Shown: in pieces, positions 19,811-48,100 of the stretch
Layout: the number at the start of each line of letters is the position of its first letter
Numbering within the stretch: the stretch's first letter is position 1
IMG/VR virus record: IMGVR_UViG_3300006735_000002
Location: 1 to 64,000 of that record
Reading direction: 5' to 3' (one strand)
DNA length: 64,000 bases
Source of the DNA: a virus
Translations under genes and position numbers: made by a program
The notes under the pieces: model-generated
Told to the model about the DNA's origin: nothing
Database searches by the model: none
What the model saw: only the letters and a program-made list of their open reading frames with translations

Positions 19811-19866
19811 TCGAAGTAGCCTCGGTCTCTCATGTTACACTCACCCGCAACCACGGGTGAGTGTCC

Positions 19867-34800: not shown

Positions 34801-35160
34801 GCGACTGAGGCTCGGACAGCGGTTGTCAGCGAAGAAGGCGGCAAGCGAGTCATCAAGTACGTCGACGAGGACTACGAAGAGCTGCAGGAGGCGTACAACT
34901 CTCGCCGCAAGAAGCCGTTTTTGATGGGTCGAAGCGCGCTCCTGTTTAAGGTCGGCCTACTTGGCCGCGTAAACGCGGCGTTCCTTCGCCTGAGAACGTC
35001 GCCTCAGGAAGACGCACTGGCGGCTGAGGCGAACTTGAAGAACGAGCTTACTCGTTTGGTTTTCAGCGTTAGTCGTTCCGCGGGACTGCGTGTCATGGCA
35101 CCAAACGAGCGCATGACCGCGAGAATGGCTGCGCCCGATCTTCTGGTCGATGACGAATGA
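19867..35160 (+). CDS. Giant (~5,100 aa) polyvalent / internal virion protein with muramidase-like, ADP-ribosyltransferase-like (ART-PolyVal) and zincin domains
   Basis: Uninterrupted ORF. AISKTES...GAWGEYQVLG (muramidase-like, ~21100-21740); FKRWLGDSKVVD..G.PLVVYHGT...GYHFG...PVYL...GHDG..Y.N...SYIAFDPTQVKS (ART-PolyVal-like, ~25320-25900); HEMSH...EELFAE (30736 onward); C-terminal YDY...LT..DR..FKR..MPF. Confidence 0.85.
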   Translation: MSYFDNLRKRAGFAIEPFADPEPEQLQPPEDVGAGVAVDAPDTLGDPFPGAPSGIAKRQKYELPKVEFDDFDPFEALGNVQFQAEYAAEVATTTGQEAQQALRVAGERELSDLGDGVLGTTLGSLAQFLPATAAKARISAGEGDVDIPGITSYLFNPQDTPEELFQTLSASEIDESSAAAQEIAKQGRRAKKVRNARDIRADIMARKIEKEFVNHYGEAPGAEKYAAFIDNIIAQTSTPEKRRTERDAEFVLLDAAERKMPNKGGGESQSQYQSVQRRAVNLVLDTSKAGIGTAFADSALVQALPNFIDTVPKIERDKIRSDLSGAPSTGSTLERAEFLAQLFNLPAPLEVDGLEPIPATLVGSQAIRETIASNDFIFREKNTRSTPKTEDLYRPLKSDAVADEDEQSRVIYLAGQAGIPAPMAYAISKTESTGIPDGFAYNLHIGSSLDKRTPESRRRTPQEEVALRRSLREAGFDVVMEPVERDGELVWPAENFYRGDAKKVFQAAYGVNGKAAVQGGAWGEYQVLGRDGGLIDAMLQIDGVEDEDQAAEQAVLQFRENPSLIGDQLFVNWFRREDPQAVTARQAANDGDVETLGLMYYGDSPDPKQVTERRKWTTRTKNNLEDYVGGMFTPPESAEDQRPEALVSVAGATPLAEREDPEDLIEEAATAVGEMIGQSDFREGKTEVEQALGLNAIQASSGSGLLPSFTAFAQMSEYPEEGTPTREKAVAPYRELIKAGSPLLADMKDSFRAPVGEKFSKFARAVYRDMLESARLSGEEPDEREIEIEARKKAFKLMISAQTADATLPPFQTSWDYITGQTDELSLIDAMKPLVEVVGAVDGGFVYRQEGTGLAFMNAMDAPPVMGQSFNIGVVKYYLLPALGAEIEKAQSGEQGLMDAAINMGMSSFKASQLGTSVIPGASAVTGGVLEEVKRAGVRGVAERQNFVELGIEQGGNLTAWAMQQALDTERGREAVESLIESGVIPIPAGLEKGNVDLATIEIARAAGSVLGTVGGFIVAVAHPDALMGIGDTKAAITAGYRQFKAIPDFERTTEALIGLRGEIYKRGLGRVSRTAEIAMGLEQVVARDQGGSSTKAVADAYSVLLDKVEQLRESDNLDADLRARGRASVYVFIDGEAERRMGEIAAGDSIQSAAAKDALDEGFSEVVAAKLKSVAEEAIASGNPLKKEEGKRLLAIVNAGIGDNVTLTPKLSDIKEAKTQDGRIVANVAFSTADRLEALILGLKLDDPSKDSTALRQTIFEQRMGRVRPTLGNTNSKDIAGFAQNPTLANGLDVFAPVSEKALDASLEGVRLSDAKKEEFRATRAALEDFHKRLKAAVADGSILDPLVSADFKNEFRQKKFKQSSYRLFNNSEESDRGRRYAQVLTGVFNEAAVVTNKSEGHQFLRRGLDAVLTYSTERGKTIQSFSRSLVDEDAVRAGGFTDVDDFLDPQGSRHYVNRAISAMLVSTKEGILSFALGVPGLRRTVDPAMLKVQQRSMMSTAALHQMRADGQDPFTVAASVQGEVLRRLRQEKALAVQAGDSVRSAEVSDQIDEVLTPQWRTGLIDWMKASADAISRGEDPQSVVKYNLPIGITLGTASETALPVLPATRKFARGSFFRAFGFSPPEQVRAGQLSPGTRTVRPRISPEEERAVEYVLDRMLRYMARADMMQSPGAANAKVENFIKQNILNVRSVDSLNNFAAKATEMRGALSSTRDAISQRRHGMSYDELAATGDTRARVEVQSDAMQSVLPLMSEREAFLIFHRTYEELEDIIAAARRGETGDDFVATRLFQDASAASADADEVAEARRLYEEQGVESPYFKRWLGDSKVVDDEGQPLVVYHGTAGDFDEFGRKRPQELGYHFGSSEAASTRLGLLVEEEVAALSDTERARYFEAVRSTSEGVNVVPVYLSMTPLRVSDSVSWTGVSVIDDMARRYPQFADIFGEARTRLSAIPETDLAARADVVKDAVRKTGHDGLVYRNVIEGGGDSYIAFDPTQVKSVYNRGTFDDSARLLFQGEDVQRVARRRGGGRRRVDPDASIGSKQPVGVKTRAARINEKFGPLAGTAERAVLAYNGALSRARLNPKRTQALLEKAQNAIKRAYVTFSMGNAQKVPDLLLDIADAIKTDDAVLEALASKPNFHGVMSNLVRKARNPEQLTQADVRSIETTLDMIGLADRFDARRIGSYTGEVAKAPKREAEALAAVADAAAPAAQPVAAAKRLRMPEAPERSPKVGEVLGDIEKLSDIKGLKSQVLAAALDLKGDYGRDADVVLKAIDMIGPERLNDIALTVAREPGPEGRRAMFDFTENTIRIYEDALETGVFSDEVVKELWRSLTRYLPEDEIKALSDEYLDQRAMFMREESELFDAQGALKEGANIDDVDRHILDFEDWVVQSMKDLALQKSREAVFQTTGAGRLSKRPLNVRGNRVLKVLMDTVKGLVQEFFSQAKNLTQIIEDFYSSGKYTERLREKGIQLVVTDEDLLRRQKEWTKFIDESAKVEPKRALGQVKTPGGKQKGDDAAAAAARTEAIDKATARAGKSDAAISVGELKKLADRFSRTASTTDNPKRVAMVRRKFREGIDPVIAAVGNDEAKALLTPLLEAAKADDAVADALAKSPEAINAIENLAVQADVAEDLAPVVEAFRRDITDAGLGDRLPEVEVPAAVVSDEVATPAAPKATPVAEAEPKVAAVPQPDEGVDNLTGAVADRATSRVMEILKFEAGKDDTTVKRAVKFVFPREEVAQRMLNEAIKDDVTRVLRSGIVDRLTELGVTAKVDGEEASAKQLVRLFNDLQSKEDAARYGKVDGSAEAGDELLVNARAELETDIAELNKRIEAAEEEAEIGKLRRQLGEAESALEEMERGRETVEIRRSASKFLDDVYDPKRGLENAQRGLALVERLSAGVSAPGGASLRSMVGELSPEEQNVARYLLERQMKNHKRGTALTMEVRDDGELYFQLVGDRPLFDEDDVIVKLFRDEAKARAKQTEAAEAAKKLANEANKKKRNAQNRLARLEAAATKIEEDAAVATEDAMKIAAERFAENLPDRFEQVQAAQTAAMDSLLPLDTPKRLTPTLEIQPGLETATASLVDLERLLSEGFDRNKDRSAVLSLIIDTADTLSPYLRFDFPESIGVIDETNKGRLKVGTTKQLLTNMVDTIKAALAPEDLEVVEGAVDLIRADNLQEAVDLKRAEPDAAPAPAPLPTTPAEHTPLPLDAINQSTLRTKSGEGVQLPQPTTLDEVEAIDNIEEAFLDMKTSELTEVATTRGIDIEDFRREDGKVDWGGLVKVLAKQDSDAIRSQRLVAETTEVEGATATDAVRRAEIEDLAEEAAPQIPVEEAVAQLDEAAETLMTTGAEVARERQVRLAKLIREARDLKGMTRQEISDRIFADLDFTERRRIAESGGIDDLVNDITGTVDVRIKEISKEISKLRTQVRVANRKADASSREVTQRNYRDAADRYQRQADTMQEFLDDIIRKDRAALDEEMRVAVDEEAARRAAEAIPEPEAEVAKTLEAEVAPEAVRAAEAAPTVKVEPKPAKVAVAEEVEEVEEAVEDSAVNVEEIRKRVERWDKENRRDKPPAPPASAPPRDRGTDAPDARAMVYFMDDSSAIIYALKNADASSGLHEMSHVLRRHLRPEDLRVSLDWVNSQLRRTEIDGQTVEALPEISLDRYGNFTGRADSVVTAEELFAEAHEQYLREGRAPTKAMDAVFKVMKELLRSIVTTLGIVPHRLEISREMNDLFDSIYGARRDLDITELTQVTRYYDTQRALAGGRTGLRRAGRLESDLVIEDELTDRFRQRILSLQEYSTRFAPLEGRQYRLEQSALGVKTPGRVGALGLGTGGAKDYGPVSRRFLPMETGARIRGGKATGSDRGIASVLKAADYAAVMAANAAVFLPYTLLYGTDAMMLLRSAPAASRPLLYGQGRELEEFTYGLTVLINDVKNRTGDAQKRGLNDIISYLRGQPVYLLTGAEAGTLTRGTSVDSGDAFFAMLDQMLSRLDPAARTALADEASQALSGDMRATKSLSGFWKGYSVKRVDGMSIGNSEGLLLNDAYLDEMTVVTAKGDTIKLDGPTQDMLGAMFEALEGSPVGNNVPVSDATKTAAALLMFHSGKSTFTNNGVEVTIEMAQRLSGEDTALGLLMRGASFDVDGTTVNVPGLMQVTGDNGKALRGLLALGTYSASSRITADAAEIGLGVTPGQFRSYARFMSGQQARMTPSQIDEAKAVIAKFGFSMDFTKIGSRLGSYYIPRPALSKIKGALNDADRLLSLRSSGDGATDVVSQMVAWLFQVTNTEAIFGSLLPKSTFRTPSFIDAVAGAMSVGGGTPAMTTAARMSAGTALGYGLGIPGFPGSELISAERMADIADALPNAVRKRLRRSLGGSESYRLYPDPKNPGKFISSDEVVQGMKSSLREAAVRQGDAFAKSLTEGMSASKHRVEVLPIINNDPQAIFVLNGSPYRASDLRRIFVRNGLYNNAFKGVTMFLRNEGAIGFGVDGFGKEDRLKSALSPSNSRAVDSMVSVIEGAGASRSSELVRDAYHMGRSGASRVFEHGLESMDAFADLERTGMAVSFIELGVPPELAAKMVVKAVYDYRGSLTRADRTLFKRAFMPFFGFQKNAMAHFTDLLASPRGRFFARVMGRMPRMTMEALSTLYFETVVGPYGVNTTAMNEAEINLYYEARSFFELGLGDDVSAEDLLVYREMLPEDAKDISDEELMDYSFDGWTVRDGYNGYDNVPEDMRATMRYLLLARGQLRANGRYVKMSEAVIDRDLRQQFVQMGATMAVVDEPSLSALPAWAANRYPTVLISPAVMTNSIQASRRGSKGMGDSVGIMLPDNFINAGFEQTAATLATVYAGAFAASEAADFVFSDGTRTEVAAAMRMLANSATPMIDIRGGGSPGMQQLMLLSEVGINDGDLYVELDPFIARLMAGTLIPINYTEGDDDLRFLENLAPETRAMLNKLTRVSSLGGLREVEYPSFATEARTAVVSEEGGKRVIKYVDEDYEELQEAYNSRRKKPFLMGRSALLFKVGLLGRVNAAFLRLRTSPQEDALAAEANLKNELTRLVFSVSRSAGLRVMAPNERMTARMAAPDLLVDDE

Positions 35161-35635: not shown

Positions 35636-37789
35636 TCAGTCCTCGCCTTGGGCGAGAGCTGACCAGGAGGAGTCACTGTAGGAGACCTGCTGGTCGATGA
35701 GATCCAGCTGGGCATCAGCGACGGTGACCGTCTCGATGTCCGGCCGCTCAGCGGTCATGAGCTGCTCGTAGACGTCACGCCGGAGGCACACACACGGGGT
35801 CGGGATGCCGTCGATGCGGCGACTCCGTGTCGCTCCACGCGTCGTCACATTCAGCCAGTCACGGGCAGCCCACCGAGGCACGACCTCTTCGTAGACGTAC
35901 CCATATCGGTCGAGAATGCCCTGCAGTGCGTGGGGCTCGATGCAGATTTCCGCCCACTCTGGCTTGCCATCTTCCCAGCGGCCAGCCCAGCCGTTGCCGG
36001 GGGTGCCCCTCTCAAGTGAGGCTCGGCTACCCCAGAAGCGGTGACGGTTCATGGTCGACCACGAGGCCGCAGCGATGAAGGCATCGCGAGCACGGTCAGC
36101 GTCGTTGGCTCCGTCACGGACAGCCTGGATGAGGAACTCAATGGGGTCACGCGTCGGGGTCGGAACTCCGAGCGTCTCGCAGACTGCCTGAGCCAGGTCC
36201 AGACTGGCGACGTAGGCGGCAAGCCGGCCACCGACAGCGGTGTTGGTGATGCCGGCGTAGCTGTCACGCCGAGTCTCGAAGGCTTCACGGAAGTCAGGCC
36301 ACGAGTCCTTGTGGAACACGAGGTACTTGGCCACGCGGCGGCCAAGATGGCCGTAGTGCGTGTAGAGCCGCCCCCTGACCGTGTCTGCCACGACACGAGC
36401 AGTCTGGGCAGGGCCAGAGATGGGGGCGCCCTGGAGGGCCAGCACACGGGCACGAACGCCGCCGTCCTGAGTGAACGAGGTCAGTCGCTGCTCACCGGTC
36501 GAGAGGAGCACCGTGTTCCAAGTGTTCACCTTGTCGATACCTTGCAGCGTGCCCCGTCCTCGACCTTTGCCGGAGCAGAAGTCGTACAGCACGTCAGCGA
36601 CATGCTGCTTGTTCTTGACCCGCTTGGTTTCATCGAGGATGAGCGGCAGACTGTGGAGGAAGCCCGCAGCACGTTCGACCCACACCTTGGTGCTGTCCCA
36701 GGAGTAGATGTAGCCCTCGTCGTCGTCATCTGCGGGGTAGCCCCAGACAGACGCGGCGACGCGCAGGCTCGTGGTCTTGCCGCTCGAGGTCTCGTTTGAC
36801 CAATCAACCGCGAAGTTCGCGCACTTGACGATGTGCTGCATGACAGCGGCGACTGACGAGTAGATGGAGAGCATGGCCAGGGGATGGTCGCGAAGAAGCT
36901 CGACGACTTCGAGCCACCCTTCCCAGGTGCCTCCGGTACGCAGCGACTTCATGATGGGGTCCATTCCCTCCATCGGGAAGAGCTTGAGCTCCTGGTGCTT
37001 GTCGAGCTTGATGTGCCCATCAGGCAGCAGGAACGACCCGTCCTTCTGCCAGCCCAAGCGGTTTGCTCCGTTGGTCAGTGGGATCTTGTGCTGGTTGATG
37101 TCCTCGTAGGCAGTGAGCCAGCGAATGGCGTCAGCCGAGGTGATGGATGTGACAGGTGCGCCATAGTCGATGAGACCCACGATCTTGCGGCTGTCGAACA
37201 AGACCGACCGCTCGACCGTGTGGGTGCGCCACTTGGGTCGACCCTTCCCTGGACCAGGGGGTTCGACCCACGCCACTTCGACCTGCATGTGGCCGGTGTC
37301 GTTGTCTCGGCCGCGCTGGGTGATGATGATGGGTGCAGTCGCCACCTTCTCACGAGTGACCGTGCCTTCCTCGAAGTTGGCCTGGAGGGTGTAGACGCCC
37401 CCCAGGTCAACGTCGAATCCGTTGGGGATTAGCAGCGAGGGAAAGCCTTCGACGAGGTAGTCAGGCAGGTTCTCGTTCAGCGTGTTCGTGACACCCAGCT
37501 GCTGCAGCACATCCTGCTGCTGCTGCTGACGCGCCCGGCGCTGCGCTCTCTTGATGGTCTGAACCAGCTCACGAGAGCGAGCACCCATGCCGCGGATTGA
37601 CCCCAGCTGCATGAAGAGCGCTTCGAACTGGAACTCGTGCGCGCCCCACTGCCCGGCCATCTGCTCGATCTTTTCAAGCGAGAAGAAGGCCGTGAAGGTG
37701 GGAGCGCGATCGGCAGACTCCATAGACTGGACGGACTCGACAAACTCTTTCAGCTCAGCAACAAGATCAACACTTTCGTTGTCGGACAT
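35636..37789 (-). CDS. DUF927-domain replicative helicase (Cch-like)
   Basis: RLGWQ..SF..P (DUF927), Walker A ETSSGKTT, PLILDE, GKGRGRG, LLSTGE, YGHLG motifs. Confidence 0.8.
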   Translation of the reverse strand: MSDNESVDLVAELKEFVESVQSMESADRAPTFTAFFSLEKIEQMAGQWGAHEFQFEALFMQLGSIRGMGARSRELVQTIKRAQRRARQQQQQDVLQQLGVTNTLNENLPDYLVEGFPSLLIPNGFDVDLGGVYTLQANFEEGTVTREKVATAPIIITQRGRDNDTGHMQVEVAWVEPPGPGKGRPKWRTHTVERSVLFDSRKIVGLIDYGAPVTSITSADAIRWLTAYEDINQHKIPLTNGANRLGWQKDGSFLLPDGHIKLDKHQELKLFPMEGMDPIMKSLRTGGTWEGWLEVVELLRDHPLAMLSIYSSVAAVMQHIVKCANFAVDWSNETSSGKTTSLRVAASVWGYPADDDDEGYIYSWDSTKVWVERAAGFLHSLPLILDETKRVKNKQHVADVLYDFCSGKGRGRGTLQGIDKVNTWNTVLLSTGEQRLTSFTQDGGVRARVLALQGAPISGPAQTARVVADTVRGRLYTHYGHLGRRVAKYLVFHKDSWPDFREAFETRRDSYAGITNTAVGGRLAAYVASLDLAQAVCETLGVPTPTRDPIEFLIQAVRDGANDADRARDAFIAAASWSTMNRHRFWGSRASLERGTPGNGWAGRWEDGKPEWAEICIEPHALQGILDRYGYVYEEVVPRWAARDWLNVTTRGATRSRRIDGIPTPCVCLRRDVYEQLMTAERPDIETVTVADAQLDLIDQQVSYSDSSWSALAQGED

Positions 37790-37798
37790 CCGTGCTCC

Positions 37799-39871
37799 TT
37801 AGGACTGCGGCCCGATGGGTGCGAGGTAGTTGGCTGCGACCGTTGCCAGCCCGTCAGGCGAAGTCTCATCCTCGAACACCAGGTTGGGATGTGCAAGGCG
37901 GAACACCTGCCGCGTGGTCTCGACCCCGTGCTCGACGATGAACATGAGGATGTTGCGCTTGAGAGATCGGAACTTGCCGCCCCGAGCGCGACCGCTGGAT
38001 GGTTCGTAGCGCTCTCGAAGCGTCCCCGGCAACATCGGCATGGCCTCAGTCACTTGCACGGCCTCGGCGGGTGCCGCTTCGGGCATGACGGGAGCAGCTA
38101 CCCGTGCTGGGGCAGTGGTCACTTTCTTCCGCAGGTCGATGACATTCCAGCCGCGGCGGAACTCCGCATCGGGCATGACCGTCGAGGTCAACATGACCGT
38201 CTGCGGGATGTCCTTGAGTGACGCCATCACTCCGCCAAGGGTGTCAGCATCCCAGCCGCGGTCTTCCGGGGCCAGGATGGACAGGGGCAGCGGCATCATG
38301 TCGTCGAGAACAGCGCACATCGCAAGGGTCACGGCCACACGCTGCGCCTCGGACAGCCCCACCTTCAGGTAACGGTCACTGCCGCCGCCTTCGTAGAGAC
38401 CGTAGTAGAACGAGTCACGCCCGTTGTCGGTGACCATGACTCCGAACTCCCAGCCGCCAGGCAGGTACGCCGTGACCTTCTCACAGAAGACATCGACTTG
38501 GTCTGCGAGCAGCTGAGACACGGCCTTCTGGGCCTGACGCTTGTACTCCGAGAACTTCTCGGCGCGGCCGTTGTTCTCTTCGACCAGCTTCTTGGCCGAG
38601 GTCAGTGTCGTCCACTTCGACAACGCATCCTGCAGGCTGGCGAGGTGTGCCTGTGCTGCGGAGAAAGCGTCGCGAGTCTCCTCTACGGACACGTCATTGC
38701 TTGAGGTCGTCGATGCCGGGAGTTCGTCGAGCTCGTTCTCGTACACCGCAATCTGCTCTCGCGTCCCGACCACTGAGTCTTTCAGGTGAGACAGAGAGGT
38801 TTCCAGCTTCCGCTTGCTCGACATCTTCTGGTCGAGGTCCTTGACCTTGTCCCAGTAGAAGCCGTGGCAGGCGGTGATGTGATCACTGCCCACGTTCGAT
38901 GAGCAGATGGGGCAGTCTTCTGTGCCCAGGTCCATTGCCCATTCCAGAGCGTGAAGTGCCCCGATGCTTCCGCGAGACTCCTTGGTCTCGATGCCAACCA
39001 ACTTCTTGAGAGCATCCTCAGCGTCGTGCATTCCTGACAGCAGCCGCTGTTCCTCTGTGCGCAACTGACCCAGCAGGCTGTGGAGAAGCTCTCGCCGCTT
39101 GTCGCTCTCGTTGGCACCGGCCGTCTGCAGGTTTGCCTCGTGGAGCTCCTGGGCCTCTCGGACAGCGTCTCGTGCGGCCAGGACCTTCGCCTGTGTCGGC
39201 TTGACTCCGACTTCGTCCAGCAGCTTGTCGCGCAGTGTGGCCTGCGCCTTGGCGTCTGCTCGGTACTTGCGGGCCATCTTGTCCGCGGTCTCGATCGAGT
39301 GAGTGAGCCGGTCAACGGGGACAAGGTCATCGTAGTTCTCGGACAAGGTCTTGTACGTCTCGAAGTCAGCGCGGATGGCTTGCTCGACGACGTCTTCGTC
39401 CAGGTCAGAACAGACCCAAGCCAGGAACCGCTGCCGCGCCTTCTTCGCAGAGCCGGTCAGAACCTCACGAACTTCACGGAGAGGGAAGTGGGGACTGTGC
39501 TGCTTGCTGGTGTGGGGAATGACCCACCGCGGACGGATGTGAGTCGGCGTCTTGATGCGGCGCTCGTCTCGCTTGGTCTCCCACTGACAGTGCTCGCCGT
39601 TGCTGAGGTTGGCACGAGCGAAGACGACCGACCCGTCATGACCATGCTGGTGTGCCAGGGTCATGATCAACGCAGGGTCGCTGGTGATGACGCGGCCCGC
39701 CACCTCTTCGGCGGCACCGCTGATGGCCAGGGCGACCGCTTGGACGACGGCGCTCTTGCCGGAACCGTTCGGTCCGACGATGAGGTTCTTCTTTGTGAGG
39801 TCGTGGCTTCGGGGGCTACCGTCAGCGGATTTGATGTTGAACGAGACACTCGTAAGTTCTGGGGTGCTCAT
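37799..39871 (-). CDS. Rad50/SbcC-like SMC-family ATPase with zinc hook
   Basis: Walker A GPNGSGKS, coiled coils flanking CPIC, signature-like LSEAQR, degenerate Walker B ILAPED. Confidence 0.75.
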   Translation of the reverse strand: MSTPELTSVSFNIKSADGSPRSHDLTKKNLIVGPNGSGKSAVVQAVALAISGAAEEVAGRVITSDPALIMTLAHQHGHDGSVVFARANLSNGEHCQWETKRDERRIKTPTHIRPRWVIPHTSKQHSPHFPLREVREVLTGSAKKARQRFLAWVCSDLDEDVVEQAIRADFETYKTLSENYDDLVPVDRLTHSIETADKMARKYRADAKAQATLRDKLLDEVGVKPTQAKVLAARDAVREAQELHEANLQTAGANESDKRRELLHSLLGQLRTEEQRLLSGMHDAEDALKKLVGIETKESRGSIGALHALEWAMDLGTEDCPICSSNVGSDHITACHGFYWDKVKDLDQKMSSKRKLETSLSHLKDSVVGTREQIAVYENELDELPASTTSSNDVSVEETRDAFSAAQAHLASLQDALSKWTTLTSAKKLVEENNGRAEKFSEYKRQAQKAVSQLLADQVDVFCEKVTAYLPGGWEFGVMVTDNGRDSFYYGLYEGGGSDRYLKVGLSEAQRVAVTLAMCAVLDDMMPLPLSILAPEDRGWDADTLGGVMASLKDIPQTVMLTSTVMPDAEFRRGWNVIDLRKKVTTAPARVAAPVMPEAAPAEAVQVTEAMPMLPGTLRERYEPSSGRARGGKFRSLKRNILMFIVEHGVETTRQVFRLAHPNLVFEDETSPDGLATVAANYLAPIGPQS

Positions 39872-40431
39872 GTTGCTCCTTGATGGGTCATGTCGGCCAA
39901 GCGCTGCGTGATCGCAGCGAATGGCTCTGTGTCGTAGTGCCAGTACAGATGCGGCAGCATCGGCACTGGGCGGGGCACAGGGGTGTAGAAGATGAGGGCG
40001 CTGCCCTTGGGCGCCCCCGTCGCGCGCTCACCGTCGGGCCTCACGAACTTGATCCGAGGGGAGAGGAAGATGACGCACAGTGCGTTTGGGCAGTTGGCCA
40101 CCCACTTGCGCCAGTACGTCGTGTCGGTGTTGGCGTAGACCAAGAGCGCCACGGTCTCGCAGCCTTCGTCACAAGCCTGCGCGGCTTTCTTGAACCAGTG
40201 AGAGATGCCTCTGCCGTACGGCGGGTTGCACCACACGCGCTTGCCGTAGTCGGACCAGCGCACACGGAGAGCATCGGTCTTGGGGTCGATGAACGGGTCG
40301 ACACGAGCTGCGTCGAGGTTCGTTGCGCAGGCGTCGAGGTTAAACGCGCAGACCGTATCGATTTGGTTGAAGAGGTTGTCGGGGGTCATCCAGTCGTCTT
40401 TACCCAGCGTACGGGTAGTCGGAGCAGTCAC
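39868..40431 (-). CDS. Phage DNA N6-adenine methyltransferase (T1 Dam-like family)
   Basis: DDWMTP, FNLDAC and catalytic VWCNPPYG motifs. Confidence 0.88.
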   Translation of the reverse strand: MTAPTTRTLGKDDWMTPDNLFNQIDTVCAFNLDACATNLDAARVDPFIDPKTDALRVRWSDYGKRVWCNPPYGRGISHWFKKAAQACDEGCETVALLVYANTDTTYWRKWVANCPNALCVIFLSPRIKFVRPDGERATGAPKGSALIFYTPVPRPVPMLPHLYWHYDTEPFAAITQRLADMTHQGAT

Positions 40432-40625: not shown

Positions 40626-40924
40626 CACTCTTCCCACCCGATGTAGCGGAACGTCGGCGTGTTCTGCCCCATCCAAGCTCCGCTGGTGTTGAACGAAAAC
40701 CACTCAGCGGCGTCCGTGTAGCTGCATTCTCCGTCCTCCATGATGGCTTCAACGCACATCTCAGCGTCGTAAACGGCCACTATGAACCCAGGCTCTCTCG
40801 GCCATTGGTCCTCAGGGGTGTCGGTCATGCCCACGATGCAGGGGTCATAGACGCTGCGTGGTTCGAGCAGCAGCGCGTCAGGGTTGTAGTTGGACAGGGC
40901 TTCGAGGATCTCTTCGTAGGTCAT
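40625..40924 (-). CDS. Conserved phage hypothetical protein
   Basis: YD.CIVG...AVYD...A.EWFSFNT.GAWMG..TP pattern; tightly packed with neighbours. Confidence 0.7.
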   Translation of the reverse strand: MTYEEILEALSNYNPDALLLEPRSVYDPCIVGMTDTPEDQWPREPGFIVAVYDAEMCVEAIMEDGECSYTDAAEWFSFNTSGAWMGQNTPTFRYIGWEE

Positions 40925-41385
40925 TCCTCACCGCCCTCGTCGCGAACGACGATGCGACCCCACGCCTTGTAGTCATCACCGGGCAGTCGAGCGGTGTCCT
41001 TGGCTTGGTGGTACTCGTTCTTTCGGTAGTCCCACACCCAGGTGATCTTCCCCTCACGGAGGAACCCTTCGATCATCTCGAAGGTCGCACGGCCGCACAC
41101 CGTATCCATCACACCAACGTACTGAGCCGGGCGGATGATGCCGTGGAACCGCGGAGAGCCGTCCCACAACCGGCCGCTCACGACCGACGGAGGCCAGGAC
41201 TTCCAACCACCGGCATCCCGAGAGCGGGAACGGTAGTCGTCGCGTCCTGCCACCACGGTGATGGTGTGCTCTGGGTACGCTTCTCCCAGCCCCTCGGTCA
41301 GACTGTCTCGCCAATCGTTTACCGTTCCGTCCTCGCATACTCTGTCATGTGCCAGGAAGAACCTGTAGTCTTTGTCGTTGCTCAC
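40921..41385 (-). CDS. Hypothetical protein
   Basis: 154-aa ORF with AAGGAGG RBS. Confidence 0.7.
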   Translation of the reverse strand: MSNDKDYRFFLAHDRVCEDGTVNDWRDSLTEGLGEAYPEHTITVVAGRDDYRSRSRDAGGWKSWPPSVVSGRLWDGSPRFHGIIRPAQYVGVMDTVCGRATFEMIEGFLREGKITWVWDYRKNEYHQAKDTARLPGDDYKAWGRIVVRDEGGEE

Positions 41386-41443: not shown

Positions 41444-44269
41444 TCACACTTCTGCCCAGGTTTGGCCGACATCAGCCTCGCAGGTGAATGGGACAGACCA
41501 TCCTGGGACATCGATGGTCATGCACTCGGTCATCTTCTTCTGCGCCCAGTCCGCCAGATGCTCCGGCACTTCGACCACGAGTGAGTCATGGACTTGCGCG
41601 GTCAAGCCTGTGCCTGGTCCCCACTGCTGGAACGGGAATGCTTCAAGCACTCTCTGCTCGGCGACAGCCATGATGGCGGCTTCGCACGCGAGGATGGGGA
41701 AGTTGACGACCTCGTTCTTCTTGCCGTCCTGCAGGCCGCCGGAGCGACGACCGAACAACGGGTCTTCCATGTACCCTTGCTGGTCATACAGTTTGAGCAT
41801 TCGGTTCCAGGCTGCCTGCCAGTCAGGCTCAGACTCATGCCAGACGCGGTCAAAGAACCGCACTTGGTTGAGGTCAAAGTGCAGGTAGGGGAGCTTTGTT
41901 TCGAGCTCGCCGTCTTTGGTGAAGCCAGTCATCTCGGTCGAGCGGATCACACTGTGCTTGGTCTCTGCCGCCGCCCAGTAGATCGAAGCGTAGCGATACG
42001 TCTTGATGAGTTCGCGCAGCTGGCCAGCCTTCCCTTTCTTCGAAGGCTTGTGCGTTGCCTTAAGACTGAACCCCTTTGTCCAACCTGAAGCCTGTTCAAA
42101 ATCCTTTCCGAACAAGTCGTGAGCGAGCCAGCAGTGCGGGTCAAGGTTCTCTGCGAAGCACTCAAGCAGGCGCTGGATGTTCCAGTAGTTGGCGGTGACT
42201 ACGAGGTGCGCAGCGCTCAGGTCGCATCCCACCAGCACGTTGCCGGGAGACGCACAGAAGACCGTACGCACACCACCGAGGTCCTTGCGGCTCGACTGGT
42301 TCTGCATGTTTGGTCGGCTCGAGGACAGTCGCCCTGGCGCTGTCGTGTGACTGTTCCACGTGGAACGGACTCGACCGTCAGGGTGCAGTGACCCACCGGC
42401 AGAGAGCGGTCGCAGGTTGTACAGCTGCGTTCCCAAGACCTTGGTCTTCACGCGACGGTACTGCCGAAGGGTCAGCAGGAAATCTCGCTGAGACTCAGTG
42501 ATGTGGGGGCTGGCCATGTGTGCTCGGAGCACCGCGTCACCTGTGCCGGGCAGACCTGTCTCTGTGTAGAACTCCTTGGCGTCCATGCCGTAAGGGATGC
42601 CGAGGTCCCACTGGCCGTAGAGCAGGTCTCCGATCTGTCCGAAGGACCCAGGGTTGAACTCCGCGCCCTTCTTGCGGCGGATGCCGATGCGGTCAGCCAG
42701 GTCCTGCAGCTTCCCGTACAGCTGCTTCGCTACACCCTCGAACTTCGTGGTGAGCATCTCGACCTTGACCTGATTGACGTAGATGCCGTTCTGGTGCATC
42801 TGAACGCACATGTCCTGCCGGGCATGGTCAAGATGACGGAGCGTCCAGGGGGTCGAACTCGGCCAGGACGTAGGCTTTGCCCACTCCGGCAGCGGCCGAC
42901 CCGCACCGTTCGAGTCCGCAGACCGACGCAGTGGCTCTGCGATGCGGGCGTTGACCACGGTGTCGTACTGGCAGTAGAGCAGCCGGCTCTTGACCGTCTT
43001 GCGTGAGGTCGCTGCTCCGTCTCCGCTCTCACTGGTCTCCCACTTGTGTACGTCAGTCAGCCGACGACCAGTAGGCTTGAGACCCTTGGGCAGGTCAGGG
43101 TGGGTGAAGCGAGCATCGAACAGTGTGTCGATGATGGGTGTCGGCTTCACGCCGTAGCAGTGCTCGACTACTTGGCGGTCGAAGTAGCCGACGTTGTGCC
43201 CGACCTTGGTCTTGCTCTCGTCGAGGAAGAACTCGAGGAGGATGTCGTGAATCTCCTGCGCCTCATACGGCAGCAGGTGCCGTACCTTCTCCCCCTTGAC
43301 TGCCTGATGCATGAGCTCCATGTTGGTGTGGATACCCACCGTACGGGCAACCTGATGCGGCTTCTCCCAGGGCATCGTGGAGTTGCCGTGGATGTCGATG
43401 TCTGGCGTAGCGATGGCGAGGCAGTCGACCTGGATGTCGCGCACGTTGATGCCATCGGTCTCAAGGTCGTAGACCCAGAAAGGTGACGGCACTGCCAGCC
43501 ACTCGCGCAGCTGGTCTGGCGTTGGCTGCGTCAAGAACTCTGGCTCACGCCAGTACAGCGCATCGTTGAACCAGCGCCACGCCTTGCCCAAGGTCGCGTA
43601 GAACTGTGGCCTCACGCTGGGGCGGTGCTTTACGAAGCCTGGGTCGTAGGTCGAGATGACCTTGACCATCCAGTCCGACGTGGACTGAGTCCAGTCAAAG
43701 GCTTGCCACGTCAATCGGCTGGCCTTGACCTCGCGCATGTCACCTTCGAGGTCGGACATGCTGGACGAGGTACCGAGCACGCGCTGGGCTGCCGTGCTGC
43801 CCATCGGGATGACGTAGCCGTAGTCTGCCAACCTGCTCTGCAGGTATGGGGCGCAGCAGTCTGCGGGGTGAGGCAGCTCCTCCTCTGCTTGACGCTTTGC
43901 TTCCGCCGCAGACATTCCTGCGGTTTGCAGCTTCTTCTGCGCGGCTTTGCGCTTGCGGCGAAGCGTCGCCTCCATCTTCTTCCACCCATCTCTTGGGGCG
44001 CATGACACCACGAAGAACAGGTCAATCATGGTGCGGTGTAGACCGTTCGCCTTGAGCGCACGGTCCCACTCCCCACCGTCCTGGCCGCTGAGCGGTCGTC
44101 CGTGGGTGACGTCGCCCAGGCGTGGTGCCTCAAGCACTGCCGCGACCGTGGTGGACTCGTGAACCTCGGGAGGTACCGGAGACCACTCACCGTCTGACAG
44201 ACACCCCTTTGGGCCGAGAGGGCATCGACCACACTGCGCGCCACGAGAGCGTGGATCGAAGCTACTCAT
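41444..44269 (-). CDS. polA: Family A DNA polymerase with N-terminal UDG family 4-like domain and 3'-5' exonuclease
   Basis: UDG-like CGRCPL...EAP...GRPLSG; Exo I YDLETDG, Exo II GHNVGYFD, Exo III YCQYD; GRLSSSRPNMQN, motif A DLSAAHL, motif B RELIKTYRYASIY, motif C VHDS. Confidence 0.92.
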   Translation of the reverse strand: MSSFDPRSRGAQCGRCPLGPKGCLSDGEWSPVPPEVHESTTVAAVLEAPRLGDVTHGRPLSGQDGGEWDRALKANGLHRTMIDLFFVVSCAPRDGWKKMEATLRRKRKAAQKKLQTAGMSAAEAKRQAEEELPHPADCCAPYLQSRLADYGYVIPMGSTAAQRVLGTSSSMSDLEGDMREVKASRLTWQAFDWTQSTSDWMVKVISTYDPGFVKHRPSVRPQFYATLGKAWRWFNDALYWREPEFLTQPTPDQLREWLAVPSPFWVYDLETDGINVRDIQVDCLAIATPDIDIHGNSTMPWEKPHQVARTVGIHTNMELMHQAVKGEKVRHLLPYEAQEIHDILLEFFLDESKTKVGHNVGYFDRQVVEHCYGVKPTPIIDTLFDARFTHPDLPKGLKPTGRRLTDVHKWETSESGDGAATSRKTVKSRLLYCQYDTVVNARIAEPLRRSADSNGAGRPLPEWAKPTSWPSSTPWTLRHLDHARQDMCVQMHQNGIYVNQVKVEMLTTKFEGVAKQLYGKLQDLADRIGIRRKKGAEFNPGSFGQIGDLLYGQWDLGIPYGMDAKEFYTETGLPGTGDAVLRAHMASPHITESQRDFLLTLRQYRRVKTKVLGTQLYNLRPLSAGGSLHPDGRVRSTWNSHTTAPGRLSSSRPNMQNQSSRKDLGGVRTVFCASPGNVLVGCDLSAAHLVVTANYWNIQRLLECFAENLDPHCWLAHDLFGKDFEQASGWTKGFSLKATHKPSKKGKAGQLRELIKTYRYASIYWAAAETKHSVIRSTEMTGFTKDGELETKLPYLHFDLNQVRFFDRVWHESEPDWQAAWNRMLKLYDQQGYMEDPLFGRRSGGLQDGKKNEVVNFPILACEAAIMAVAEQRVLEAFPFQQWGPGTGLTAQVHDSLVVEVPEHLADWAQKKMTECMTIDVPGWSVPFTCEADVGQTWAEV

Positions 44270-46706: not shown

Positions 46707-47114
46707 TTATTCGTTGATCTCCCACCGATGCTGAGTGTCAGGCTCATGGGACCTGCGGATGTTGCGAACCCGCCCACCTGTCAGACTCAACTTTTCGGTA
46801 AGGAAATCAACCACTTGCTTGACGTTGAACTCCTTGCAAGAGAACAAGTCGAAGCTCACGTGACCACGGAGGGGCCACGTGTGGATGCTGCCGTGAGACG
46901 TGGTCAGAATCACAGTCCCCGTCACTCCCCCATCGTCCTCTCCGTTTTCAACCGTGGGATTGAGTGGTACCGAGACCATCTCGGCGGGCTTCAGAATCTG
47001 CATACCCACCATCACAACGAGCTCGTTGAGCAGCGCACTGATCAACTCAGGGTCGTTGAGGCGCTGCGAGTCTTGGGTCCAGGCGTCAATGATTACGTGC
47101 CTACCTGTTTTCAT
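46707..47114 (-). CDS. speD: S-adenosylmethionine decarboxylase proenzyme (class 1B, pyruvoyl) homologue
   Basis: GRHVIID...GGVTGTVILTTSHGSIHTWP...FDLFSCKEF. Confidence 0.85.
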   Translation of the reverse strand: MKTGRHVIIDAWTQDSQRLNDPELISALLNELVVMVGMQILKPAEMVSVPLNPTVENGEDDGGVTGTVILTTSHGSIHTWPLRGHVSFDLFSCKEFNVKQVVDFLTEKLSLTGGRVRNIRRSHEPDTQHRWEINE

Positions 47115-47119
47115 GATGA

Positions 47120-48100
47120 TTACTCCGGGCCGTACTGGCAAATCTCAAACGCACCGCACTTACCGTAGCGGTGGTAGCAGGCGAGCTCACTCCGGGTCAG
47201 CTCCCAATCGCCCGGACCCGTTCGTCCCTCGGCGAACATCACGAGCTGCTGCGCCAGGGAGTGCGCCTTCGTGTAGACCTGTCGGGCAAACTGCTGGTCA
47301 CGCCACGGCGTAGCCGGAACATGCTGCCGGCTCACGGCGTACGGCTCTCTGCGCTGCACCAGGTTGAGGACAACGCCCCCGAAGTTCGAACCGTACAGCT
47401 GTCGACCAGCGATGCGGTTGACGGCGAACTGTCCATCCATGGCGTACTGCTGAGCACGAGTCTTGCTCACGCTCCCGCCGGTCACCTTGTGGTCCCAGAT
47501 GTATGTCCGCCTGTCCTGGCTGTGTGTCATCACCAGGTCGAAGCGCTTGGTGACCACGATGGGCTTGCCGTGCTGCAGCGCTGGCACTCCGGCAGTCGGC
47601 TCTTCAAGACCAGGGCAGTCCAGAAGCTCGGGCTCGGCGAGGTTCTTGTCAAGCCACAGTCCGAAGTCCCCCTTGTGATTCCGCCCTACGGTCATCTTGA
47701 TCTGCATCTCGACACCTTCAACACGGTCCGAAACATACGGCTCACGCTGTCGGTAGCGGCGGAAGACCTCGAGAGTGTTGGCGATGAAGTGCGCCGCCTC
47801 CGTACCCTCCTTCTCCGCTTCATCGACCCATGCCCGCAGCCCCTCCTCAGGCGGCAAGAAGTAGTTGGGATCACTGATGTTTTCTCCCTCGTACTCAAAC
47901 CCACCCTGCTCGCACCCAAGTCGAGCGTAGTAGTGCGCCAGGATGGTGTGGCCCATCGACCCCTGGGTCAGCGGGTCAGCTCCGATGAACTGCTTGCCCT
48001 GCACGTTGATGAGGAACCAGAGGAAGTCGCAGCTGAAGGCAGGCCCCCAGAAGGACCACCCCGACGTGCTGCGCCCGGTGTTGATGAGGATGGGGTTCAC
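47120..48100 (-). CDS. PD-(D/E)xK exonuclease (Cas4/AddB-like)
   Basis: GSMGH, E..I, RFDLV, IWDHKVT, Q motif, C-terminal CYHRYGKC.AF.IC; GTG start after GGAG. Confidence 0.8.
   Translation of the reverse strand: MNPILINTGRSTSGWSFWGPAFSCDFLWFLINVQGKQFIGADPLTQGSMGHTILAHYYARLGCEQGGFEYEGENISDPNYFLPPEEGLRAWVDEAEKEGTEAAHFIANTLEVFRRYRQREPYVSDRVEGVEMQIKMTVGRNHKGDFGLWLDKNLAEPELLDCPGLEEPTAGVPALQHGKPIVVTKRFDLVMTHSQDRRTYIWDHKVTGGSVSKTRAQQYAMDGQFAVNRIAGRQLYGSNFGGVVLNLVQRREPYAVSRQHVPATPWRDQQFARQVYTKAHSLAQQLVMFAEGRTGPGDWELTRSELACYHRYGKCGAFEICQYGPE

What the first reader, a model, noticed from the sequence alone, without database searches (positions are those of the whole stretch)
41560..42240. Family A polymerase with several substitutions at normally invariant nucleotide-selection residues
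Seen in sequence: motif A reads DLSAAHL rather than DYSQIEL, so the steric-gate Glu (E710 in Klenow) is His. Motif B reads RELIKTYRYASIYW rather than RxxAKxxNFGxxYG (Tyr at 762 as in T7, plus N761R, G763A, G767W). NFPILACEAA replaces NxxxQGxAAD (Q849 to Leu). Motif C is VHDS rather than VHDE. The catalytic Asp residues, R754, K758, Y766 and all three exonuclease motifs remain, so the enzyme looks active. Inference: altered sugar or base selectivity, possibly for a modified nucleotide. No purZ or other recognisable base-synthesis gene is in the window.
Basis: partly seen in the sequence, partly recalled or inferred. Interest (0 to 1): 0.7.

Follow-up and report, generated by a model that had tools for sequence, protein, structure and literature searches.

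The report
Phage DNA polymerase with histidine sugar-gate
The only DNA polymerase of this uncultured marine phage has histidine where Pol I-type enzymes normally have the glutamate that keeps RNA building blocks out, as one of four linked active-site changes shared by a large group of uncultured phages; its effect on the enzyme is untested.

Summary
The gene at 41444-44269 (-) encodes a 941-aa fusion of a UDG-like domain, a 3'-5' exonuclease and a PolA. It is the only DNA polymerase found in a complete 81.6-kb marine phage genome.

HDS, G763A, G767x and Tyr762 also occur in relatives with the normal Glu gate, or in N4 or T7. Exactly four alignment columns separate His-gate from Glu-gate relatives with no overlap. 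In Klenow numbering they are T666 to V/P, E710 to H, Q849 to L/I and A852 to E. No mixed state occurs in 267 proteins or 160 IMG/VR loci. Trees need four switches, but AU tests (p 0.33 and 0.08) do not reject a single origin.

No thymidylate-synthase, PurZ-like, TGT or RNR gene occurs in this genome or in 25 related long records, and no neighbouring gene tracks the His set. So a modified-nucleotide role is unsupported.

My best reading is a compensated rewiring around Arg668 that keeps ordinary dNTP use. That step is inferred, not shown. My searches found no paper describing it. This scan has already reported the same His set on other genomes.

The parts
41444..44269 (-). UDG-like / 3'-5' exonuclease / family A DNA polymerase gene, 941 aa (P0001)
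   Evidence: ORF. Pfam DNA_pol_A 117 bits, DNA_pol_A_exo1 33.9 bits, UDG 24.2 bits against a cut-off of 24.3. phrog_17 E 5.9e-75. AF2 model pLDDT 93.7, pTM 0.91. Foldseek best match Klenow 1kfs, E 1.8e-27.
43550..44269 (-). N-terminal family-4 UDG-like domain (aa 1-240). It has CGRCPL; motif A reads LEAPR and motif B reads TYDPG, so the His is lost.
   Evidence: The profile of alignment A3 hits the family-4 UDG structures 1l9g/1vk2 (E about 4e-15) and 1ui0 (2.8e-13).
42920..43486 (-). 3'-5' exonuclease domain (aa 262-450): ExoI DLETDG, ExoII GHNVGYFD, ExoIII YCQYD
   Evidence: D268 and E270 are each found in 239 of the 239 proteins with a residue there; D364 in 244/244; D436 in 252/252.
41447..42832 (-). 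Polymerase domain (aa 480-941)
42329..42340 (-). TGR motif read as APGR. P645 (42335-42337) replaces the Thr (Klenow T666). R647 (= Klenow R668) is kept.
   Evidence: His-type proteins have V150/P46/I5 here and Glu-type have T40/S12/G4, with zero overlap.
42203..42223 (-). Motif A DLSAAHL. D683 is the catalytic Asp. H688 (42206-42208) stands at the steric-gate position (Klenow E710).
   Evidence: H is 206/206 in His-type proteins and E is 59/59 in Glu-type.
41975..42016 (-). Motif B RELIKTYRYASIYW (R752, K756, Y760 = position B3 Tyr, Y764)
41675..41704 (-). Helix-Q motif NFPILACEAA. L860 (41690-41692) replaces Klenow Q849. E863 (41681-41683) replaces A852.
41582..41593 (-). Motif C VHDS (H894, catalytic D895, S896 in place of Klenow E883)
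   Evidence: HDS/HDA is also found in Glu-gate relatives and in N4 gp39.

Best explanation
This is the phage's replicative DNA polymerase. It is a three-domain enzyme: a degenerate family-4 UDG-like domain, a proofreading exonuclease and a PolA. Shown: it belongs to a large, uncultured, mostly marine family in which the floor of the active site exists in two exclusive states. The ancestral-looking state has Thr666, Glu710, Gln849 and a small residue at 852 (Klenow numbers), as in Pol I and T7. The derived state, found here, has Val/Pro645, His688, Leu/Ile860 and Glu863. Inferred: all four positions surround the conserved Arg647 (Klenow Arg668). That arginine senses the primer-terminus minor groove and the incoming sugar. 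In the derived state the carboxylate that normally comes from the steric-gate Glu is supplied one helical turn along helix Q, by Glu863. The imidazole ring of His688 takes over the job of packing under C2' of the incoming sugar. Thr to Val/Pro and Gln to Leu fill the vacated polar space. On this reading the enzyme still selects ordinary dNTPs and copies ordinary DNA. The change is a compensated rewiring, possibly with tuned fidelity or speed, and not an adaptation to an unusual nucleotide.
For: It is the sole polymerase: one PolA and no PolB family match in a 100% complete genome with direct terminal repeats. It sits in an N4-like replication module: DUF927 primase-like, SMC-like ATPase, Sak4-like AAA_24 and SNF2 helicase. 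The catalytic and proofreading residues are intact, and the confident model matches Klenow, Bst and Taq. The four-column set shows no mixed state: of 267 proteins, 191 are H-L-E, 11 H-I-E, 59 E-Q-small, 1 D-Q-A and 5 have gaps. The fourth column, 645, also has zero overlap. Of 160 IMG/VR loci, 81 are H-[L/I]-E, 73 are E-Q-[G/A/S/C], 6 are truncated and none is mixed. The six minor His-type proteins (two are sister to a Glu-type protein at 99*) carry all four residues, yet look Glu-like at the next-best signature columns that lie between them (701, 715, 759, 814-820). That argues against a single swapped segment. With the motif columns removed, the trees need 4 switches. A review passage states that in Bst the counterparts of Q849, R668, E710 and D882 lie close together and interact electrostatically (PMC10520511, passage). 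No known base-modification or dNTP-synthesis family is in this genome or in 25 related long records. Near-identical DNA stands in shotgun marine metagenomes of several studies.
Against: No coordinates of the model were available to me, so the proposed His688-Glu863-Arg647 contacts were not measured. No biochemistry exists. That an imidazole can act as a sugar gate in a family A enzyme is an analogy with the aromatic gates of other polymerase families (recalled, from no call). A single origin of the set is not rejected (AU p 0.325; p 0.081). Only 2 independent contrasts rest on supported branches (sign test p 0.5). So the four changes could partly be co-inherited rather than physically coupled. 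Many genes of the genome have no family match, so an unknown modification pathway cannot be excluded. A SAM-decarboxylase-family gene and a Dam methylase lie nearby.
Confidence: 0.55

Rival explanations
1. Altered sugar selectivity. The His set loosens or re-aims the sugar gate. The polymerase would then tolerate ribonucleotides when dNTPs are scarce, or handle 2'- or 3'-modified nucleotides differently, for example by rejecting chain-terminating analogues that a Tyr762 enzyme would otherwise accept.
For: The changed residues are the ones known to police the sugar. E710 is the steric gate (passages of PMC10201439, and of the T7 preprint). The set surrounds Arg668. Tyr760 at B3 is the ddNTP-permissive state as in T7. 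None of this genome or the 25 related records encodes an RNR.
Against: Glu-gate relatives lack RNR too (0 of 11), so that trait does not track the gate. His is as bulky as Glu. The proofreading exonuclease is intact. There is no direct test.
Confidence: 0.2
2. Fidelity or extension tuning. The set changes how Arg647 reads the primer-terminus minor groove. It would alter mismatch extension, lesion bypass or speed, and leave substrate chemistry unchanged.
For: Counterparts of R668, Q849 and E710 affect fidelity when mutated in Klenow (PMC10520511 passages). Q849, a minor-groove contact, is replaced by a residue that cannot hydrogen-bond.
Against: This overlaps with the best explanation and cannot be separated from it with sequence data. 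No phenotype is known.
Confidence: 0.15
3. Modified-base replicase. The pocket is adapted to a non-canonical base, as in DpoZ or the polymerases of phages with 5hmU-derived genomes.
For: UDG-PolA fusions of the SPO1 and SP15 types belong to phages with T-modified DNA (PMC13697223, section 15). A SAM-decarboxylase-family gene (81.6 bits) and a Dam methylase lie within 5 kb of the polymerase gene.
Against: The four changed residues face the sugar and the minor groove, not the base edge where known modifications sit (inference). No TS, ThyX, PurZ-like, TGT, dUTPase or NDT family gene is in the genome. TS, PurZ-like and TGT are 0 of 25 in related records. The decarboxylase occurs in only 4 of 82 His-type loci and Dam in 20 of 82 His-type against 8 of 77 Glu-type. 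The UDG motif-B His is lost here. The DNA assembles from ordinary shotgun libraries.
Confidence: 0.07

Closest known systems
N4-like UDG-PolA (cluster #17 of Czernecki et al. 2023, PMC10201439; type: phage N4 gp39)
   Same: The domain order is the same: an N-terminal family-4 UDG-like domain with degenerate catalytic residues, then the exonuclease, then PolA. Motif C is HDA or HDS instead of HDE. Positions 763 and 767 are not Gly. The replication module is similar, with a roughly 715-aa primase and a Sak4-like protein.
   Different: N4 gp39 keeps Glu at the gate, Ser (for Klenow Thr666) at the TGR position and Phe at B3. Its helix-Q residues were not aligned by the family HMM; one search's motif search shows the canonical Q spacing (NALGQ). 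Sequence similarity is weak: BLASTP 29% over 189 aa, E 3e-11. tblastn hits to N4-like phages cover 26% of the query or less.
Glu-gate sister polymerases of the same uncultured family (e.g. P0151, P0253)
   Same: They have the same three-domain architecture and 30-40% identity. They share Tyr at B3, HDS/HDA in motif C, and partly the conserved small ORF downstream.
   Different: They carry Thr/Ser, Glu, Gln and Ala/Gly at the four positions. Most keep the canonical UDG motifs GEAPG and HP[AS]. No DUF927 primase homologue was found beside them (0 of 77 loci against 41 of 82).
Bacterial Pol I large fragments (Klenow, Bst BF, KlenTaq)
   Same: They are the best structural matches: Foldseek E 1e-27 to 1e-24, TM-score normalised to the target 0.76-0.82. 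The catalytic residues are the same.
   Different: Identity is 16-19%. They have no UDG domain. They carry the canonical T666, E710, Q849, A852 and E883.
T7 gp5 DNA polymerase
   Same: It has Tyr at B3 (Y526 = Y760) and is the replicative PolA of a virulent phage.
   Different: It has Glu480, Thr427, Gln615 and Gly618 at the four positions, HDE in motif C, and no UDG domain.
SP15-like and SPO1-like UDG-PolAs (Missoury et al. 2026, PMC13697223)
   Same: They have a UDG domain fused ahead of the exonuclease and PolA domains.
   Different: Those enzymes keep the UDG catalytic residues. The SP15-like ones are about 1300 aa with two large inserts and a C-terminal domain, and they come from phages with T-modified DNA (section 15). 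Here the protein is 941 aa and ends 45 residues after motif C, as Klenow does. UDG motif B has lost its His, and no TS homologue is present.

Membership tests
Family A DNA polymerase (Pfam PF00476) | Match to the family profile above the curated cut-off | tested here: met
   117 bits against a cut-off of 34.3. The six-frame search of the genome finds the same single gene.
Family A DNA polymerase (Pfam PF00476) | Catalytic Asp of motifs A and C; Arg, Lys and Tyr of motif B | tested here: met
   D683, D895, R752, K756 and Y764 align to Klenow D705, D882, R754, K758 and Y766.
Family A DNA polymerase (Pfam PF00476) | Klenow-like exonuclease plus polymerase fold | tested here: met
   Model pLDDT 93.7. 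Foldseek 1kfs E 1.8e-27; 8oo6 TM-score normalised to the target 0.82.
Family A DNA polymerase (Pfam PF00476) | Glu at position A2, the steric gate (PMC10201439 passage) | tested here: not met
   His688 aligns to E710, E480 and E615. This lowers 'canonical PolA active site', not membership of the fold family.
N4-like UDG-PolA (cluster #17) | [quoted passage not shown] | tested here: met
   Pfam UDG 24.2 bits, just under the cut-off of 24.3. The family profile hits solved family-4 UDGs. The motifs read LEAPR and TYDPG.
N4-like UDG-PolA (cluster #17) | Phe at motif B position B3 | tested here: not met
   Tyr760 here; N4 gp39 has F658.
N4-like UDG-PolA (cluster #17) | Clusters by sequence with N4 gp39 | tested here: inconclusive
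   Only 29% identity over 189 aa, E 3e-11. No CLANS-type clustering was run.
SP15-like / SPO1-like UDG-PolA | UDG catalytic motifs conserved | tested here: not met
   LEAPR in place of GEAPG, and TYDPG in place of the HP[S/A] motif.
SP15-like UDG-PolA | Two large inserts and a C-terminal domain of about 80 aa | tested here: not met
   The protein is 941 aa. Motif C lies at 893-896, 45 residues from the end, as in Klenow (881-883 of 928).
SP15-like / SPO1-like UDG-PolA | Genome encodes the 5hm-dUTP route (thymidylate-synthase homologue) | tested here: not met
   No PF00303, PF02511 or PF00692 match in the complete genome.
DpoZ | Co-occurs with PurZ (adenylosuccinate-synthetase family) | tested here: not met
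   No PF00709 match in the genome, and 0 of 25 related records.
DpoZ | Phe at motif B position B4 (PMC10201439 passage) | tested here: not met
   Tyr764.

The most novel reading that the evidence does not exclude
The four-residue His set is a second, naturally evolved design of the family A sugar gate, and it changes what the polymerase accepts at the sugar. Examples would be tolerance of ribonucleotides during dNTP shortage, or rejection of chain-terminating nucleotide analogues. On this reading it arose more than once because it gives these marine phages a replication advantage.
Probability: 0.2. Interest if true: 0.8.

Novelty: new variant of a known kind. Interest (0 to 1): 0.6.

Why it matters
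Glu710 is the textbook steric gate of family A polymerases. The 2023 reclassification of the family treats it as one of the highly conserved motif positions (PMC10201439 passages). Here hundreds of natural, evidently functional replicases lack it, and they always carry the same three companion changes around Arg668. That makes a concrete question testable with two proteins and a handful of swap mutants: is the Glu needed as such, or only a carboxylate plus a bulky side chain in that region? The answer bears on how sugar selection and minor-groove checking are built, and on engineering PolA enzymes for modified nucleotides. It also gives virome studies a marker besides position 762. If the enzyme turns out to be an ordinary dNTP polymerase, the finding is a clean natural example of a compensated active-site rewiring.

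Tried and rejected
Cultured relatives. Megablast of the gene against 50,697 phage records found nothing. tblastn found only matches under 60% identity (those listed 21.5-32.9%) with no record covering 80% of the query. A Glu-type relative also has no close cultured relative; its best hit is Virus Rctr197k at 26.5%.

Contact geometry. Structure prediction returns no coordinates and none appear in /data. So the distances among His688, Glu863 and Arg647 could not be measured.

Origins of the set. The AU tests of a single origin were not significant (p 0.325; p 0.081). The independent-pairs test has too few contrasts (2 supported, p 0.5). I therefore do not claim repeated origin as shown.

Genes tracking the set. 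By plain tblastn the ORF downstream of the polymerase gene looked His-specific (72 of 82 against 7 of 77). An iterated HMM removed most of that difference (67 of 70 against 39 of 67). I rejected it as a marker of the His set. Its fold search gave nothing under E 1e-3 with Foldseek. VIA-align gave only Z 6-7 matches to TIR, SEFIR and nucleoside deoxyribosyltransferase chains, which is inconclusive.

Annotation. Pfam and PHROGs left most early genes unnamed.

Expression. No RNA holder is listed for the gene.

Papers. Searches for E710H, E615H, E658H, E480H, Glu710His and Glu615His found 0 papers. The search for 'steric gate' + 'family A' + histidine + phage + polymerase found 12 papers. The search for 'family A DNA polymerase' + 'steric gate' + metagenom + viral found 7. 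I read passages only of PMC10201439, PMC13697223 (plus its outline and the whole of section 15), PMC10520511, the T7 preprint 10.64898/2026.05.20.726624 and PMC6302109. The last has no occurrence of steric, histidine, uracil or 'motif A'. None describes a His gate. The rest I saw only as search listings. Figures are not held and supplements are closed. I therefore could not see the motif logos of Figure 3 of PMC10201439 or Supplementary Fig. S1 of PMC13697223, and they may bear on how invariant position A2 is.

Recalled, from no call: the Arg668 'hydrogen-bonding fork', the aromatic steric gates of other polymerase families, and the accession numbers of T7, N4 and E. coli K-12.
Full report
WHAT IS THERE. 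The window is the first 64 kb of an 81,570-bp IMG/VR virus record with direct terminal repeats, rated 100% complete. The finding lies in one ORF, 41444..44269 on the minus strand, 941 aa. Pfam finds DNA_pol_A (117 bits), DNA_pol_A_exo1 (33.9 bits) and UDG (24.2 bits, a hair under the 24.3 cut-off). PHROGs gives phrog_17 'DNA polymerase', E 5.9e-75. A profile of close homologues also hits solved family-4 uracil-DNA glycosylases, with E about 4e-15 and 2.8e-13. An AlphaFold2 model built on 112 sequences is confident (pLDDT 93.7, pTM 0.91). Its best PDB matches are Klenow, Bst, Taq and phage G20c Pol I (E 1e-27 to 1e-25). Six-frame searches of the whole genome find this one PolA and no family B polymerase. 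It sits among a DUF927 primase-like gene, an SMC-like ATPase, a Dam methylase, a Sak4-like AAA_24 protein and an SNF2 helicase. That module resembles the one in phage N4. It is therefore the phage's replicase.

THE OBSERVATION. The catalytic D683 and D895, and R752, K756 and Y764, are canonical. The exonuclease residues are intact. Among the gene product and its 120 nearest homologues, His688, Glu863, Arg759, Tyr760 and the HD of motif C are invariant.

WHAT IS SPECIAL AND WHAT IS NOT. A search of 1.84 billion representatives found 311 clusters at E 1e-30 or better, so the family is large. tblastn against 50,697 phage records found nothing close for this protein or for a Glu-type relative, so the family has no close cultured member in that collection. 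I aligned all 267 proteins in hand to one HMM. The family splits into proteins with His at the gate and proteins with the normal Glu. HDS/HDA in motif C, Ala at 763, non-Gly at 767 and Tyr at 762 occur in both groups. N4 gp39 also has HDA and FALTYQ, and T7 has Tyr. Those substitutions are therefore family traits, not part of the oddity. A scan of every alignment column for residues that separate the two groups found exactly four columns with zero overlap:
- Column 645: Val 150, Pro 46, Ile 5 in His-type against Thr 40, Ser 12, Gly 4 in Glu-type.
- Column 688: His 206 against Glu 59.
- Column 860: Leu 191, Ile 11 against Gln 59.
- Column 863: Glu 202 against Ala 36, Gly 15, Pro 4 and others.
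In Klenow numbers these are T666 (the Thr of the TGR motif, two residues before Arg668), E710, Q849 and A852. For the three columns 688, 860 and 863, the tally over 267 proteins is 191 H-L-E, 11 H-I-E, 59 E-Q-small, 1 D-Q-A and 5 with gaps, with no mixed state. In a second sample of 160 IMG/VR loci, the tally is 81 H-[L/I]-E, 73 E-Q-[G/A/S/C], 6 truncated and none mixed. Those loci were retrieved partly by motif A patterns, so the gate residue was selected for. The helix-Q residues were not.

ONE ORIGIN OR SEVERAL. For the first tree, 260 of 271 rows passed the 80% coverage filter. The two N4-type references failed it and were dropped. The rows were thinned to 161 and then to 91. With the motif A, B, helix-Q and C columns removed, an IQ-TREE quick tree (LG+G4, 413 columns) needs 4 E/H switches, of which supported branches force 2. 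For a full-length set, 226 of 267 proteins had at least 85% coverage, and I thinned them to 70. The partial P0169 dropped out. With 814 columns and all five motif regions removed, the tree again needs 4 switches, and supported branches force all 4. P0232 and P0244 are sister to a Glu-type protein at 99*. At the next-best signature columns, which lie between the four positions, the minor His lineages look Glu-like. One transferred segment is therefore unlikely. However, AU tests do not reject a tree with all His-type proteins together (p 0.325, delta lnL 25.2; p 0.081, delta lnL 82.5). Only 2 supported independent contrasts exist. I therefore state that the set always travels together. That it arose more than once is favoured but not established.

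IS IT ABOUT A MODIFIED NUCLEOTIDE? Six-frame family searches of the complete genome find no thymidylate synthase/hydroxymethylase family, ThyX, adenylosuccinate-synthetase (PurZ) family, TGT (DpdA) family, dUTPase, nucleoside deoxyribosyltransferase or RNR. Positive controls ring in known genomes. In these, TS, PurZ-like, TGT and RNR are each 0 of 25. One SAM-decarboxylase-family gene is present (46707-47141, 81.6 bits). Its homologues occur in only 4 of 82 His-type loci. Dam occurs in 20 His-type and 8 Glu-type loci. Near-identical DNA stands in shotgun marine metagenomes from several studies. By contrast, a paper reports that commercial polymerases fail on the hypermodified YerA41 and RP13 genomes (PMC13697223, section 15). 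Nothing here points to unusual DNA. Many early genes remain unnamed, so an unknown pathway is not excluded.

HOW IT PROBABLY WORKS. A review passage says that in Bst the counterparts of Q849, R668, E710 and D882 lie close together and interact electrostatically, and that mutating them harms binding, catalysis or fidelity (PMC10520511). Three of the four switching positions are those residues or the neighbour of Arg668. The fourth lies one helical turn after Q849 on the same helix (helix 851-877 in the model). My inference is a relocation. The carboxylate moves from motif A to helix Q (Glu863). His688 supplies the bulk beneath the sugar's C2'. Thr to Val/Pro and Gln to Leu repack the space. Arg647 is kept. 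This would preserve dNTP selection. It is an inference from sequence pattern and published contacts. I could not measure distances, because no model coordinates are given to me. The rival readings are changed sugar selectivity, changed fidelity and a modified base. The first two cannot be tested here. The third has the evidence above against it.

COMPARISON WITH WHAT IS KNOWN. The closest described group is the N4-like UDG-PolA cluster #17. It has the same domain order and a degenerate UDG domain (PMC10201439 passages). But N4 gp39 has Glu at the gate and Phe at B3, and it is only 29% identical over 189 residues. I do not file this enzyme as a member. It is not SPO1- or SP15-like: its UDG motifs are degenerate, it has no inserts or C-terminal domain, and the genome has no TS homologue. 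It is not DpoZ: there is no PurZ, and it has Tyr at B4. My literature searches found no description of a His gate in family A. Figures and supplements could not be seen. Earlier agents of this scan reported the same His set on other genomes. I re-derived it independently here and agree with them. I add that formal tests do not yet establish several origins.

VERDICT. The enzyme is an active-looking replicase with a natural four-residue alternative to the canonical sugar-gate and Arg668 network. The modified-nucleotide interpretation is unsupported. Novelty: a new variant of a known kind. Interest 0.6.

Noticed in passing
window 40921-41385 (-): A 154-aa ORF lies directly downstream of the polymerase gene. 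Its family stands beside the polymerase in 67 of 70 His-type and 39 of 67 Glu-type IMG/VR loci that have room downstream. It has no Pfam or PHROG match. The AF2 model has pLDDT 91.5. The only fold matches are weak (Z 6-7) to TIR, SEFIR, ThsB and nucleoside deoxyribosyltransferase chains.
   Followed up: partly
window 46707-47141 (-): A SAM-decarboxylase-family gene (PF02675 81.6 bits; phrog_3125 E 1.8e-21) lies inside the replication module. Homologues occur in only 4 of the 160 related loci.
   Followed up: partly
window 39868-40431 (-): A Dam-family N6-adenine methyltransferase (PF05869, E 2.9e-24) lies about 1 kb (two small ORFs) downstream of the polymerase gene.
   Followed up: no
window 19861-35160 (+): A single ORF of 5099 aa takes up about a fifth of the genome. 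I did not analyse it.
   Followed up: no
window 43550-44269 (-); proteins P0002-P0267: The state of the UDG domain differs between the groups. Glu-gate relatives mostly keep GEAPG and HP[AS]. His-gate proteins mostly have AESPG, GEAPR or LEAPK. This protein's subclade has lost the motif-B His (TYDPG).
   Followed up: partly
proteins P0169, P0193, P0255: One minor His-gate lineage also replaces the motif C His (Klenow H881) with Tyr, reading NYDS.
   Followed up: no
protein P0185 and other homologues of 1200-2034 aa: Many family members are far longer and match in several stretches. P0185 has an insertion of about 330 aa right after the TGR...PN segment. These look like inteins at conserved polymerase sites.
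   Followed up: no
window 35636-37789 (-): Homologues of the DUF927 primase-like protein were found beside 41 of 82 His-type polymerases and beside 0 of 77 Glu-type ones. The two groups may therefore use different primases.
   Followed up: no
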